IMG/VR virus record: IMGVR_UViG_3300032212_000003
Span: 11,633-75,632 of that record
DNA length: 64,000 nucleotides
Reading direction: 5' to 3' (one strand)
From: a virus
Taxonomy: Duplodnaviria; Caudoviricetes
The stretch's first letter is position 1, and each line of letters begins with the position of its first letter. Shown here piece after piece: positions 14,252 through 51,529 of the stretch. A model generated the notes under the pieces. That model was not told where the DNA came from. It was given only the letters and a program-made list of their open reading frames with translations, and did no database searches. The position numbers and the translations under genes were made by a program.

Positions 14252-15379
14252 ATGGCAATTACAGAAAAGACTATACTAAACTTCGGTACGGCAGTTCTCG
14301 TAACGAATGAAACTGCCAATAACTTAGATTCTCCAGCAGTTGGAACGGATTTAGTTGGTATTTCCTTGGGCGTTACTGGTGTGACCTTTGATCTGATCAC
14401 AGGTTTCAGTGCTAATTCAGCTACCTCACCGGGGCCGGGTGCTGATCTAACGGACCAGCAAATAAATTCCGCCAATATGTATAATGCAGCGGGTAGCATA
14501 AGCTGTACTCTTACTTTTCCTGTCGCTCACGGCCCTGTAGATATTCGTGTTTATAACTGTGTTGATGGGTTCTTTACCGGTCAGGACAACATGACCGCCA
14601 GTGCAATTGGCCTGACCACTGTGTCTGAAAGTAGGGGCTTACTCCTAGCTACAGATATTGGCTCCAATAATCCAAACGGTGAGTTCTTCACATTATTAAA
14701 TGTCACACCTGATGCTTCAAATCAGATTGTAATCCAGTTGGATAATGATGAAGCAGCCCCAGCCGGTTTACAGGGCATTGTTCTGTTCCCCGCAGCCGCA
14801 GCAAATCCTGTTTTAAGTGCTCCAACTAACACTAAAACCTCAACATCTATAACACCAAGTGTTTCAACTGACACTGTTGCCGGAACAGTTTATGCTGTTG
14901 CTGTAGATACTGGTGCTGGCGTTCCTTCAGCCGCACAGATAATAGCCGGAACTGACTCACTGGACGCAGCAACACCGAATAGTAATTCAGCAGTTTCTGC
15001 CAGCCCTCAGGCTCTACCGGCATTAGCTGGATTGTCTGCATCAACTGGATATGACATTTATTTAGTTCAGGTTGATGGAACTAATTCTAATGTAGTGTCG
15101 ATGATCAATGTCATTACAGATGCTGAGACCACTCAAACATCTTTTAGCCTGACTGATAATGAAGCTGTAACTTCACCAGTAGCAAGCACGGCATTTAGTT
15201 TTGCGATATACACCGGGATAGGTGGTACGCTCTTAGAAACAGGAACATTCTCTACAGATGTTAATGGGGACGTAACTATATCAGGACTAACTTCAACTCC
15301 AGCCGGGTCAGCGTATATCTTATGTTGGATAACCGCCACTCCTACTTTCGTATCTCCATTCGCTATAACGGTGACATAA
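14252..15379 (+). CDS. Virion adhesin-like protein with an FN3-like domain
   Basis: Segment GTVYAVAV..GAGVPSAAQIIAG...LAGLSASTGYDIYLVQVD resembles FN3-like domains of surface proteins. Confidence 0.55.
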   Translation: MAITEKTILNFGTAVLVTNETANNLDSPAVGTDLVGISLGVTGVTFDLITGFSANSATSPGPGADLTDQQINSANMYNAAGSISCTLTFPVAHGPVDIRVYNCVDGFFTGQDNMTASAIGLTTVSESRGLLLATDIGSNNPNGEFFTLLNVTPDASNQIVIQLDNDEAAPAGLQGIVLFPAAAANPVLSAPTNTKTSTSITPSVSTDTVAGTVYAVAVDTGAGVPSAAQIIAGTDSLDAATPNSNSAVSASPQALPALAGLSASTGYDIYLVQVDGTNSNVVSMINVITDAETTQTSFSLTDNEAVTSPVASTAFSFAIYTGIGGTLLETGTFSTDVNGDVTISGLTSTPAGSAYILCWITATPTFVSPFAITVT

Positions 15380-51152: not shown

Positions 51153-51195
51153 TAAATTCTCCTTAAATATTCGGACAAGTCCGAAAGATAATTAG

Positions 51196-51311
51196 TACCG
51201 GGTGCTGGATTTGAACCAGCGACCTTCTCCTTAATAGGGAGACGCTCTTATGACAGTGCATTGTCATCTTCCACAATATGCACATTGCTTCGACCCCTGA
51301 GCTAACCCGGT
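51196..51311 (-). ncRNA. tRNA-like RNA, anticodon AUU, with a ~43-nt D-loop insertion
   Basis: Acceptor ACCGGGT/ACCCGGT, D-stem GCTC/GAGC, anticodon arm TCTCC-CTATTAA-GGAGA, T-arm GCTGG-TTCAAAT-CCAGC; no encoded CCA. Confidence 0.85.
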
Positions 51312-51529
51312 ACTAATTACCCTTATAAAATAGATGAGAAGGAAATAAGGCAGAGTGAAAATTTTCCCTTCTCATCTTTAGCTATGACGATGCGTCTGTG
51401 CATCAAACATTACAATTAGTCCATAGTTTATATTCTCCTGCTTATTACGTACTTTAATTTGTGTATGAAGGTGACGTAAATTAACCCGCTTCTATTCCCG
51501 CTATTTAGCGGGAGGGCCTTGCTAAAAAA

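What the first reader, a model, noticed from the sequence alone, without database searches (positions are those of the whole stretch)
51190..51318. tRNA-like RNA with an AUU anticodon, 14-bp acceptor helix and a kissing-loop domain in the D-loop
Seen: all four tRNA stems are perfect, but the D-loop is 51 nt. It contains two hairpins, GCAAT-[GTGCAT]-ATTGT (51273-51288) and ATGACA-[ATGCAC]-TGTCAT (51250-51267), whose 6-nt loops are exact reverse complements and are joined by a GGAAG linker. They can kiss within or between molecules, or refold into one long hairpin. The acceptor stem extends by 7 more perfect pairs (AATTAGT/ACTAATT), there is no CCA, the discriminator is A, and the loop CU-AUU-AA is one base from Lys (UUU/CUU) or Asn (GUU). 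Established: A34 tRNAs other than Arg(ACG) are very rare in bacteria, and anticodon nucleases such as PrrC and PARIS AriB target tRNA-Lys. Inference: a non-translating tRNA mimic (nuclease decoy, oligomerising scaffold or switch). I do not recognise it as a described class.
Basis: partly seen in the sequence, partly recalled or inferred. Interest (0 to 1): 0.85.

Follow-up and report, generated by a model that had tools for sequence, protein, structure and literature searches.

The report
Phage tRNA mimic with kissing loops
A phage from a microbial mat, and one related phage, carry a conserved tRNA-shaped RNA gene whose two ends are locked into a long helix and whose D-loop holds two hairpins with matching loops. 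It probably imitates a tRNA rather than carrying an amino acid, but its job is not known.

Summary
The window is a complete 75.6-kb phage genome with terminal repeats.

One homologue exists, at the same genomic position in a related 79-kb phage. Comparing the two copies supports every helix:
- 48 predicted pairs are 99% paired, and 17 changed on both sides.
- These include 3 of the 6 loop-loop pairs (GUGCAU/AUGCAC becomes GUGAGA/UCUCAC) and 7 pairs in the two D-loop hairpins.
- They also include position -1 opposite the "discriminator" 73 (U:A becomes A:U).

The terminal helix is 17 pairs (possibly 20), not 14. The tRNA core and the loop CUAUUAA are unchanged. No CCA is encoded, although the two neighbouring ordinary tRNAs encode it. 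The related phage has no ordinary tRNA at all, only this RNA.

Rfam and ARAGORN do not recognise it as a whole.

My best reading (about 0.5) is a non-aminoacylated tRNA mimic that binds a tRNA-recognising factor. The two loops most likely pair between molecules. A decoy for an anticodon nuclease is a guess (about 0.2).

There are no expression data and only two sequences. This scan has noted other non-decoding phage tRNA look-alikes on other DNA. I found none with this design.

The parts
51187..51321 (-). Whole tRNA-like RNA gene as supported by comparison (135 nt, position -10 to 82). May extend to 51184-51324 if three further invariant pairs form.
51312..51321 (-). 5' strand of the 10-bp helix that extends the acceptor stem (GGUAAUUAGU)
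   Evidence: Pairs with 51187-51196. Two of the 10 pairs change on both sides in the homologue (helix 1).
51305..51311 (-). Acceptor stem, 5' strand (ACCGGGU, positions 1-7)
   Evidence: Three pairs change on both sides and one on one side, against G001
51299..51302 (-). D stem, 5' strand (GCUC), preceded by U8 A9 at 51303-51304
   Evidence: Invariant in both copies
51289..51298 (-). 5' part of the D-loop (AGGGGUCGAA). It holds A14, G15 and the G18 G19 pair of a normal D-loop.
   Evidence: Read. G001 has AGAGGCGAG in this place.
51273..51288 (-). D-loop hairpin 1: GCAAU [GUGCAU] AUUGU
   Evidence: Three stem pairs change on both sides. The stem is 8 bp in G001 (helix 3).
51268..51272 (-). Linker GGAAG between the two hairpins (AAGA in G001)
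51250..51267 (-). D-loop hairpin 2: AUGACA [AUGCAC] UGUCAU. Its loop is the exact complement of the loop of hairpin 1.
   Evidence: Four stem pairs change on both sides. Three of the six loop-loop pairs change on both sides (helices 4 and 5).
51244..51247 (-). D stem, 3' strand (GAGC), preceded by AA at 51248-51249 and followed by G26 at 51243
51226..51242 (-). Anticodon arm: UCUCC CUAUUAA GGAGA, with A34 U35 U36 at 51235-51233
   Evidence: The loop is invariant. Two stem pairs change on both sides (helix 6).
51204..51225 (-). Variable loop AGGUC and T arm GCUGG UUCAAAU CCAGC
   Evidence: This is the only part Rfam's tRNA model recognises. One single-sided change, to G-U.
51187..51203 (-). Acceptor stem 3' strand (ACCCGGU), then base 73 and the trailer (ACUAAUUAUC) that pairs with the leader. 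No CCA.
51171..51184 (-). Small hairpin UCGGA-CUUG-UCCGA directly after the RNA, followed by the ribosome-binding site and start codon of the next gene. It is a copy of a junction motif repeated through both phages. It may mark the 3' end or a processing site.
   Evidence: Conserved after the homologue and matched at many other places in G001. Its function was not tested.

Best explanation
This is a working gene for a tRNA-shaped non-coding RNA of about 135 nt. It lies in the early, leftward-transcribed region of a lytic-type phage with terminal repeats.

It keeps the full tRNA core: U8, A14, G15-C48, G18 G19, A21, G26, a 7-nt anticodon loop with U33 and A37, a 5-nt variable loop and a canonical T arm. 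It should therefore fold into the tRNA L-shape.

Three features set it apart from an amino-acid carrier:
1. Its ends are sealed in a 17-20 bp helix with no CCA, and base 73 is paired.
2. The anticodon position reads AUU, which bacteria do not use for decoding.
3. The outer corner of the D-loop carries two hairpins whose 6-nt loops are complementary to each other.

Most likely it is not charged and does not decode. It would act as a tRNA mimic that occupies a factor reading the anticodon arm of Asn/Lys/Thr-type tRNAs (loop CU-NUU-AA). The leading candidate is a host tRNA-cutting defence nuclease. A modification enzyme or a synthetase is also possible.

The two loops most likely pair between molecules (loop 1 of one RNA with loop 2 of another). 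That would give head-to-tail dimers, because all helices can then form at once.

Shown: the structure and its conservation. Inferred: no aminoacylation, the dimer, the binding partner.
For: - Structure: all stems are perfect and the fold has z = -5.
- Homologue: one copy at the syntenic place in a related phage (primase 82% identical). DNA identity is about 75%, 99% of pair cells are kept, and 17 pairs change on both sides. That includes the loop-loop pairs, both D-loop hairpins, -1:73 and -9:81.
- Identity positions: base 73 is A in one copy and U in the other, and pair 1:72 is A-U in one and G-C in the other. Such positions are normally fixed within a tRNA identity (established knowledge).
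- CCA: none is encoded, whereas the two adjacent ordinary tRNAs encode it.
- The related phage has no ordinary tRNA and keeps only this RNA. It is therefore kept for its own sake.
- Energies: the two-hairpin form and the refolded long hairpin are close in energy (-7.1 against -8.9 kcal/mol in G000, -12.1 against -9.2 in G001). A 6-bp loop-loop duplex adds about -6 kcal/mol.
- The same loop CUAUUAA, followed by NGGUC and a T arm, occurs in many non-decoding Y RNA-like tRNA mimics of phages and bacteria.
- Literature: phage tRNAs counter tRNA-cutting defences (PMC10264068, PMC11555353). The PARIS nuclease AriB cuts tRNA-Lys, tRNA-Thr and tRNA-Asn at U36-A-A-U-C|A41, touches the D-loop with its second active site, and its authors raise the idea that viral tRNAs might also inhibit it (PMC12409363). 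This RNA has UAAGG at that site.
Against: - There are only two sequences, and a third related contig with the same gene neighbourhood lacks the RNA.
- There is no evidence of transcription, ends or abundance.
- Nothing shows that RNase P, RNase Z or BN and the CCA-adding enzyme cannot open the helix and mature it.
- Ordinary-looking tRNA-Asn genes with AUU and an encoded CCA exist in other phages and in a bacterial genome bin. Other phage tRNA genes with normal anticodons and CCA carry a D-loop hairpin. So neither A34 nor a D-loop insert excludes decoding.
- No defence nuclease, host or binding protein is identified.
- The steric argument against a kiss within one molecule is my own estimate, not a model.
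Confidence: 0.5

Rival explanations
1. It is the precursor of a decoding tRNA. RNase P and a 3' nuclease open the leader-trailer helix and the host enzyme adds CCA. The tRNA, with its enlarged D-loop kept, is charged (Asn-like or Lys-like) and reads AAU, the commoner Asn codon of this AT-rich phage.
For: - Every universal tRNA position is kept.
- AAU is used 33 per 1000 codons against 17 for AAC.
- tRNA-Asn-like genes with AUU, G73 and CCA occur in other phages (L063, L084) and in a bacterial genome bin (L185).
- D-loop hairpins occur in phage tRNA genes with CCA and normal anticodons (L114 GUU, L109 GAU).
- It is the only tRNA-like gene of the related phage.
Against: - Base 73 and pair 1:72 differ between the two copies, and 73 covaries with -1.
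- No CCA is encoded although its two neighbours encode it.
- G34 is a main recognition element for AsnRS and U34 contributes to LysRS recognition (established knowledge). If charged with Lys it would misread AAU.
- The covarying pair of loops has no role in this model.
Confidence: 0.2
2. It is a conformational switch or a processing and stability element acting in cis. The tRNA shape recruits RNase P or RNase Z (or RNase III on the 20-bp helix) to cut the early transcript just upstream of the next gene. The two D-loop hairpins toggle with one long hairpin.
For: - It sits about 35 nt upstream of a start codon in both phages, followed by the same small hairpin and ribosome-binding site.
- The two folds are within 2-3 kcal/mol of each other.
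- The terminal helix stacked on the T stem would give 22-25 bp, near the usual length of RNase III substrates (established knowledge).
Against: - The downstream genes differ between the phages, since G000 has an extra 80-aa ORF.
- A cutting signal would not need an invariant anticodon loop, a full tRNA core, and covariation in both hairpin stems as well as in the loops.
Confidence: 0.12
3. It is a Y RNA-like scaffold that binds the host's Ro60 (Rsr) protein. In this reading it is a co-linear counterpart of the permuted YrlA tRNA mimics.
For: - It has a closed end without CCA, an L-shape core and the same CUAUUAA loop as many YrlA-like RNAs.
- G000 has GUCGAAG in the D-loop, which fits the GNCGAAN0-1G motif linked to Ro60 binding (PMC4201824).
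- Deinococcus Yrn1 is likewise co-linear, with the long terminal stem at the acceptor position (PMC4201824).
Against: - There is no Rfam YrlA match, even at E up to 10.
- The motif is not kept in the homologue (GGCGAGG), and it lies in the D-loop rather than near the 5' end.
- Neither phage has a Ro60 (TROVE) gene, whereas YrlA RNAs are defined as lying within 4 kb of one.
Confidence: 0.06
4. The D-loop insert is an intron that is removed to give an ordinary 76-nt tRNA.
For: - Introns at D-loop positions are known in archaeal tRNAs (PMC4090602, seen).
- The insert lies between G19/Y20 and A21, so its removal would leave a normal D-loop.
Against: - The nearest cultured relatives infect Vibrio and Pseudomonas, and bacteria lack the tRNA splicing endonuclease.
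- I saw no bulge-helix-bulge arrangement at the junctions.
- No RNA ligase or endonuclease was seen among 59 ORFs.
- At 41-44 nt the insert is far too small for a self-splicing intron.
- Removal would still leave AUU and a sealed end.
Confidence: 0.04
5. It is a decaying tRNA pseudogene that was hit by an insertion.
For: ARAGORN does not call it, and Rfam matches only part of it.
Against: Seventeen compensatory double changes and no broken helix across two diverged phages are not compatible with decay.
Confidence: 0.02

Closest known systems
YrlA / bacterial Y RNA-like tRNA mimics (Rfam RF02553; Chen et al. 2014, PMC4201824; structure preprint 10.1101/312249)
   Same: - Non-decoding RNA with a full tRNA L-shape core.
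- No free CCA end.
- Found in phages next to tRNA genes.
- Many members carry the same CUAUUAA hairpin before NGGUC and the T arm.
   Different: - YrlA is circularly permuted (T arm before D arm, acceptor stem capped by a loop, ends leaving at the anticodon side). This RNA is co-linear with tRNA and is closed at the acceptor side.
- No Ro60 gene nearby, and no match to the Rfam model.
- YrlA has no paired hairpins in the D-loop.
Phage T4 species 1 RNA (rnaC), a stable RNA of unknown function
   Same: - About 139 nt.
- Encoded at the far end of the tRNA cluster, after tRNA-Arg.
- Canonical T arm, paired ends and a large structured expansion where the D arm would be.
- Function still unknown (PMC9697503).
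   Different: - No sequence or model similarity.
- T4 rnaC has one 60-nt irregular hairpin and a 10-bp anticodon-like stem with a 6-nt loop.
- It has no pair of complementary loops and no 17-bp terminal helix.
Nuclease-resistant phage tRNAs (T5 tRNA-Lys, tRNA-Thr and tRNA-Asn against PARIS AriB; T5 tRNA-Tyr against retron Eco7; mycobacteriophage tRNAs)
   Same: - Phage-encoded, in an early region.
- Anticodon arm of the Asn/Lys/Thr type, with changes at the positions such nucleases read (PMC12409363, PMC11555353, PMC10264068).
   Different: - Those are ordinary, charged, decoding tRNAs that replace the cut host tRNA.
- This RNA has a non-decoding anticodon, a sealed end and a D-loop domain. 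It could only act by binding, not by replacement.
   Same: Two loops of one RNA are complementary to each other, covary among related phages, and are thought unable to pair within one molecule, so they join molecules (my recollection of the pRNA literature, not checked here).
   Different: - pRNA is not tRNA-like.
- Its loops pair over 4 nt.
- It sits on the packaging motor of phi29-like podoviruses. Nothing links this RNA to packaging.
Phage and bacterial tRNA genes with an extra arm in the D-loop
   Same: A hairpin is inserted after G18 G19 of an otherwise normal tRNA.
   Different: - Those have a single hairpin (L108 two), and the ones listed here with an encoded CCA have ordinary free ends.
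- Most have normal anticodons.
- This RNA has two hairpins with mutually complementary loops, a sealed end and AUU.

Membership tests
Canonical elongator tRNA (Rfam RF00005) | Cloverleaf with the universal core positions (U8, A14, G18 G19, U33, T-loop UUCRANY, G53-C61) | tested here: met
   Read. All are present in both copies.
Canonical elongator tRNA (Rfam RF00005) | Recognised full length by tRNA finders | tested here: not met
   ARAGORN makes no call. Rfam matches only model positions 10-63 at 31.1 bits. The G001 copy scores 27.7 bits, below the cut-off.
Canonical elongator tRNA (Rfam RF00005) | Free 3' end with an unpaired discriminator and CCA (encoded or added) | tested here: inconclusive
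   No CCA is encoded. Base 73 pairs with -1 and covaries with it. Addition after processing cannot be excluded without RNA data.
Canonical elongator tRNA (Rfam RF00005) | Identity elements stable among orthologues (base 73, pair 1:72, anticodon) | tested here: not met
   73 is A against U, and 1:72 is A-U against G-C, between the two copies. The anticodon AUU is kept.
Canonical elongator tRNA (Rfam RF00005) | Aminoacylation and decoding | not testable with these tools
   Needs experiments.
YrlA / Y RNA-like (RF02553) | Match to the family model | tested here: not met
   No hit at E up to 10. The same search gives a full-length hit on a phage YrlA-like unit.
YrlA / Y RNA-like (RF02553) | Permuted order: T arm, capped acceptor stem, D arm, with the ends paired at the anticodon side | tested here: not met
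   The order is that of tRNA.
YrlA / Y RNA-like (RF02553) | Encoded within about 4 kb of a Ro60 (TROVE) gene | tested here: not met
   No TROVE match in G000 or G001. The positive controls were detected.
YrlA / Y RNA-like (RF02553) | GNCGAAN0-1G motif near the 5' end | tested here: inconclusive
   G000 has GUCGAAG, but in the D-loop. G001 has GGCGAGG.
T4 rnaC-type stable RNA | Sequence or structure homology to T4 rnaC | tested here: not met
   Model R1 finds only an ordinary tRNA in the T4 region. The folds differ.
T4 rnaC-type stable RNA | Position at the end of a phage tRNA cluster | tested here: met
   In G000 the order is tRNA-Arg, tRNA(CAU), a 210-nt spacer, then this RNA. G001 has no cluster.
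Archaeal-type tRNA intron | Bulge-helix-bulge motif at the exon-intron junctions, and a host with the splicing endonuclease | tested here: not met
   I found no such motif by reading. The relatives infect Vibrio and Pseudomonas.
   Six of six pairs are kept, three of them with double changes (helix 4).
   Needs native gels. No link to packaging genes was seen.

The most novel reading that the evidence does not exclude
The RNA is a dedicated, dimer-forming tRNA decoy. Two sealed, uncleavable tRNA bodies are joined at their elbows by a double loop-loop kiss. The pair plugs both sites of a dimeric host tRNA-cutting immune nuclease (PARIS AriB-like, PrrC/RloC-like or colicin E5-like) early in infection. 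This would be an RNA-only anti-defence factor that acts by mimicry rather than by replacing the cut tRNA. The A34 versions of the Asn and Asp loops in phage and bacterial Y RNA-like mimics would then reflect the same logic.
Probability: 0.15. Interest if true: 0.85.

Novelty: new variant of a known kind. Interest (0 to 1): 0.6.

Why it matters
Phage tRNAs have recently been recognised as weapons against tRNA-cutting bacterial immunity. All known cases are ordinary tRNAs that replace the damaged host tRNA.

A conserved tRNA look-alike that cannot easily be charged, and that carries a built-in pairing module, would point to a second strategy: mimicry, or titration of a tRNA-reading protein by RNA alone.

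It also adds a well-supported example to the small set of non-decoding tRNA mimics (tmRNA, Y RNA-like YrlA, T4 rnaC), most of whose partners are still unknown.

It gives a compact natural design in which a tRNA scaffold is fused to a self-complementary two-hairpin module. Standard tRNA finders and Rfam miss it, so similar genes are probably under-counted in phage genomes.

Tried and rejected
- **Expression.** The one search for public runs found only the microbial-mat DNA run that is the likely source, and no RNA holder was listed. I did not lay reads.
- **More homologues, none found beyond G001.**
  - Flanking-gene searches in IMG/VR.
  - Anticodon-arm patterns in IMG/VR and in JGI metagenomes (which returned only G001 again plus an unrelated tRNA with AUU, L101).
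  - A D-loop-insert pattern.
  - A T-arm-plus-trailer pattern.
  - Contigs encoding relatives of two neighbouring proteins.
  - One syntenic relative (L103) lacks the RNA.
- **Promoter and terminator scan** around the locus: nothing above shuffled expectation.
- **Which tRNA it descends from.** Comparison with 642 phage tRNAs, and with E. coli, gave no clear answer: Asn, Lys, Thr, Ile and Met bodies score alike.
- **Enzymes that might process it.** Pfam scans of 59 ORFs and PHROG scans of 20 ORFs showed no RNA ligase, Ro60 or tRNA enzyme.
- **Rejected ideas.**
  - attP or island repeat. That applies to some bacterial hits, but here both halves are present and covary.
  - MITE-like inverted repeat. 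Selection acts on pairing, with G-U pairs, not on the sequence.
  - Plus-strand promoter inside the insert (chance level, and not conserved).
  - A Shine-Dalgarno-like AAGGAG in the anticodon stem. No start codon follows it.
- **Literature.** I found no paper describing this architecture.
Full report
**What the window is.** The window is bases 11633-75632 of a 75,632-bp virus record with direct terminal repeats, rated complete. It encodes a tape-measure protein, a family-A-type DNA polymerase, a primase, a helicase, a ligase and SbcCD-like nucleases. It also encodes thymidylate synthase, dCTP deaminase, RadC and peptide deformylase. The nearest cultured relatives, at about 30% primase identity, are roughly 80-kb Vibrio and Pseudomonas phages such as SHOU24 and Lana. 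The only public run holding the DNA is a microbial-mat metagenome. The locus lies in a block of small, tightly packed minus-strand ORFs typical of an early region.

**Checking the observation.**
- The acceptor stem has 7 bp. It is followed by U8 A9 and a 4-bp D stem.
- The D-loop is 51 nt. It holds hairpin 1 (51273-51288) and hairpin 2 (51250-51267), joined by GGAAG.
- After G26 come a 5-bp anticodon stem, the loop CUAUUAA, the variable loop AGGUC and a canonical T arm.
- Base 73 is A, and no CCA follows.
- The two 6-nt loops, GUGCAU and AUGCAC, are exact complements.

The helix beyond the acceptor stem is longer than reported. It has ten further pairs, so 17 in all (51187-51321). Three more invariant pairs are possible. 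The 129-nt stretch folds with z = -5.0, and none of 200 shuffles folds as well. ARAGORN finds only the two neighbours, tRNA-Arg(UCU) and tRNA(CAU). Rfam's tRNA model matches only positions 10-63, at 31 bits.

**A homologue, and what it shows.** A primase search in IMG/VR found one related phage, G001 (78,952 bp, primase 82% identical). A DNA search of that record found a copy of the element. A translated comparison shows the two early regions are syntenic and that the element sits at the same place. The genes on either side of it partly differ.

I built a covariance model from the window copy with the proposed structure. I aligned both copies to it and counted pairs, with the loop-loop contact written as a pseudoknot. 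This alignment is fitted to the structure, so the counts lean towards it. The size of the effect and the slide controls still argue that it is real.
- Of 96 cells, 99% form standard pairs, and 17 of 48 pairs changed on both sides.
- None of 500 shuffles reached these values. Sliding the partner by 1-3 columns gives only 33-48% paired and 0-2 double changes.
- Double changes by helix: terminal helix 5 (pairs 1:72, 3:70, 7:66, -1:73 and -9:81), hairpin 1 three, hairpin 2 four, the loop-loop helix three (GUGCAU/AUGCAC against GUGAGA/UCUCAC), anticodon stem two.
- The anticodon loop, the D stem, the variable loop and the universal tRNA positions are unchanged.
- Several pairs in G001 are G-U, which fixes the transcribed strand.
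- G001 folds on its own into two hairpins with 6-nt loops.

With only two sequences, each change is a single event. Even so, the number of changes and the absence of any broken helix rule out a decaying pseudogene.

**How far the family reaches.** G001 has no ordinary tRNA. The homologue is its only tRNA-like gene. A third, more distant contig (L103) has the same neighbourhood (RadC, DUF5983, deformylase, DUF7227) but lacks the element. Pattern scans of IMG/VR and JGI metagenomes, and contigs reached through two neighbouring proteins, gave no further member. The family is small in the data I could reach.

**Is it a decoding tRNA?** Four points speak against it.
1. The ends are paired through base 73, and -1:73 changed from U:A to A:U between the copies while the seven pairs beyond it stayed identical. 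Selection therefore acts on the pairing of base 73 and not on its identity. Pair 1:72 also differs. In bacterial tRNAs of one identity these positions are normally fixed (established knowledge).
2. No CCA is encoded, while both adjacent tRNAs encode it.
3. A34-U35-U36 is not a bacterial decoding anticodon. If the body were Lys-like it would misread AAU (established knowledge).
4. A covarying pair of complementary loops has no role in decoding.

Four points speak for it.
- The core is perfectly tRNA-like.
- AAU is the commoner Asn codon here, at 33 against 17 per 1000.
- Ordinary-looking tRNA-Asn genes with AUU, G73 and CCA do exist (L063, L084, L185).
- Other phage tRNA genes with CCA and normal anticodons carry a hairpin in the D-loop (L109, L114, L116, L127 and others).

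I put the decoding reading at about 0.2.

**The two loops.** The two-hairpin fold and the refolded single hairpin (loop 1 paired with loop 2 as an ordinary stem) are close in energy: -7.1 against -8.9 kcal/mol in G000, and -12.1 against -9.2 in G001. The 6-bp loop-loop duplex is worth about -6 kcal/mol.

Both hairpin stems covary as well as the loops. A state in which all of them exist together is therefore the simplest reading.

In a standard kissing complex with fully paired 6-nt loops, the two stems and the loop-loop helix stack end to end over 16-19 bp, about 45-55 Å. Here the hairpins are joined by only 4-5 nt, and their outer ends must both return to the D-loop. A kiss within one molecule therefore looks sterically unlikely. 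A symmetric head-to-tail dimer (loop 1 of A with loop 2 of B, and the reverse) satisfies everything. This is my inference from general RNA geometry, not a computed model. The switch alternative stays open.

**What it might bind.** The insert leaves the D-loop after G18 G19, at the outer corner of the tRNA elbow. The anticodon arm stays exposed.

The loop CUAUUAA is the bacterial tRNA-Asn loop with G34 changed to A, and it is one base from the Lys loop. Scans for this loop followed by NGGUC and a T arm returned 38 phage loci and 81 bacterial loci. By my reading of the contexts, most of the phage loci and many of the bacterial ones are not tRNAs. They are circularly permuted tRNA look-alikes. 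One that I tested matches Rfam YrlA over the full length of the model, below the curated cut-off. These are the Y RNA-like tRNA mimics of Chen et al. 2014 (PMC4201824). Sister units in the same arrays show the Asp loop with the same G34-to-A change, or the true Asn loop. An Asn-type loop with A34 is thus a recurring feature of non-decoding tRNA mimics. This suggests a shared protein partner that reads this arm.

Several tRNA-cutting defence nucleases act on exactly this group of tRNAs.
- PARIS AriB cuts tRNA-Lys, tRNA-Thr and tRNA-Asn between 40 and 41, next to U36-A-A-U. It places its second active site on the D-loop. Its authors raise the idea that viral tRNAs might also inhibit it (PMC12409363).
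- PrrC and RloC cut at the wobble base (PMC1484252, PMC2610378).
- Colicin E5 cuts tRNAs whose anticodons begin with queuosine-34 followed by U35 (mentioned in PMC10264068).

The element has UAAGG where AriB substrates have UAAUC. A non-cleavable decoy is therefore plausible, but nothing here tests it. I give it about 0.2 within the 0.5 for a non-translating mimic.

**Comparison with known RNAs.**
- It is not a YrlA. The order of arms is that of tRNA, Rfam gives no match, and neither phage has a Ro60 gene. A Ro60-type motif is present in G000 only, and in the wrong place.
- By position and general build it resembles phage T4 rnaC (species 1 RNA). That is a 139-nt stable RNA after tRNA-Arg with a T arm, paired ends and a large expansion at the D-arm position, and its function is still unknown. 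There is no homology between the two.
- The mutual complementarity of two loops recalls phi29 pRNA (from memory).
- Earlier notes of this scan describe other uncatalogued phage tRNA look-alikes: an extra D-loop arm, sealed anticodon loops and a sealed acceptor end. I treated them as leads only. My own scans independently show D-loop hairpins in unrelated phage tRNA genes.
- I found no paper describing a tRNA-like RNA with this design.

**Verdict.** The interpretation as a non-translating mimic is the best-supported reading but is unproven, and the specific job is open. I class it as a new variant of a known kind (non-decoding tRNA mimics). Interest is moderate to high. The structure is unusually well supported for a two-member family and suggests clear experiments. 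Against that, there is no expression evidence, no partner and no wider family.

Noticed in passing
L062:1872-1994 (+), also L093, L077, L067, L078, L096, L098 and bacterial loci L162, L164, L170, L183, L194, L202 and others: In many phage tRNA arrays and in bacteria of many phyla there are circularly permuted tRNA look-alikes: T arm, capped acceptor stem, D arm, with complementary flanks. One matches Rfam YrlA full length below the cut-off. They carry an extra anticodon-like hairpin with the loop CUAUUAA. Sister units have CUAUCAC or UUGUUAA. These are Asn and Asp loops with G34 changed to A, a feature I did not find mentioned in the YrlA papers I read.
   Followed up: partly
L108, L109, L110, L114, L116, L124, L127, L140 (coordinates): Unrelated phage tRNA genes carry a structured hairpin inside the D-loop after G18 G19. 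Several have an encoded CCA and normal anticodons (GUU, GAU, UUC). Two have ACU on a short-variable-loop body. No paper describing this was found.
   Followed up: partly
L063:4392-4467, L084:6097-6172, L185: Ordinary-looking tRNA-Asn genes (G73 and CCA; U1-A72 in L084 and L185) with anticodon AUU instead of GUU, in phages and in a Caulobacterales genome bin.
   Followed up: no
L141:4082-4174 (+): A tRNA-Asn(GUU) in a 260-kb phage contig whose leader and trailer add 9 pairs to the acceptor stem, with no CCA. It sits inside what looks like the anticodon arm of another tRNA-like sequence.
   Followed up: no
window, all genes: AUA makes up 60% of Ile codons (40 per 1000), and AGA is the main Arg codon. 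This matches the phage's two ordinary tRNAs, Arg(UCU) and CAU (probably tRNA-Ile2). The related phage G001 has no ordinary tRNA.
   Followed up: partly
window 51171-51184 and many gene junctions; G001 at 14389, 22520, 25213, 27557, 75158 and others: The small hairpin motif (U)CGGAC-NN-GUCCG(A), followed by a ribosome-binding site, is repeated at gene junctions in both phages. It directly follows the tRNA-like RNA in both.
   Followed up: partly
window 51322-51529 (-): The 210-nt spacer between tRNA(CAU) and the tRNA-like RNA holds two strong hairpins: CCCGCUAAAUAGCGGG, and an 11-bp stem at about 51334-51377 followed by a U-rich run. Neither was called a terminator by the simple scan.
   Followed up: no
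L120:7631-7732 and L122:63-163: Phage tRNA genes with the anticodon loop CUCUAAA (CUA, amber-reading) and a very long variable arm. These are likely suppressor tRNAs.
   Followed up: no
L176, L201, L228, L231 and similar: Bacterial hits ending in ...UCGGGGAGCCA without a matching 5' half look like displaced 3' halves of tRNA-Asn. Such halves are left as repeats when genomic islands integrate.
   Followed up: no
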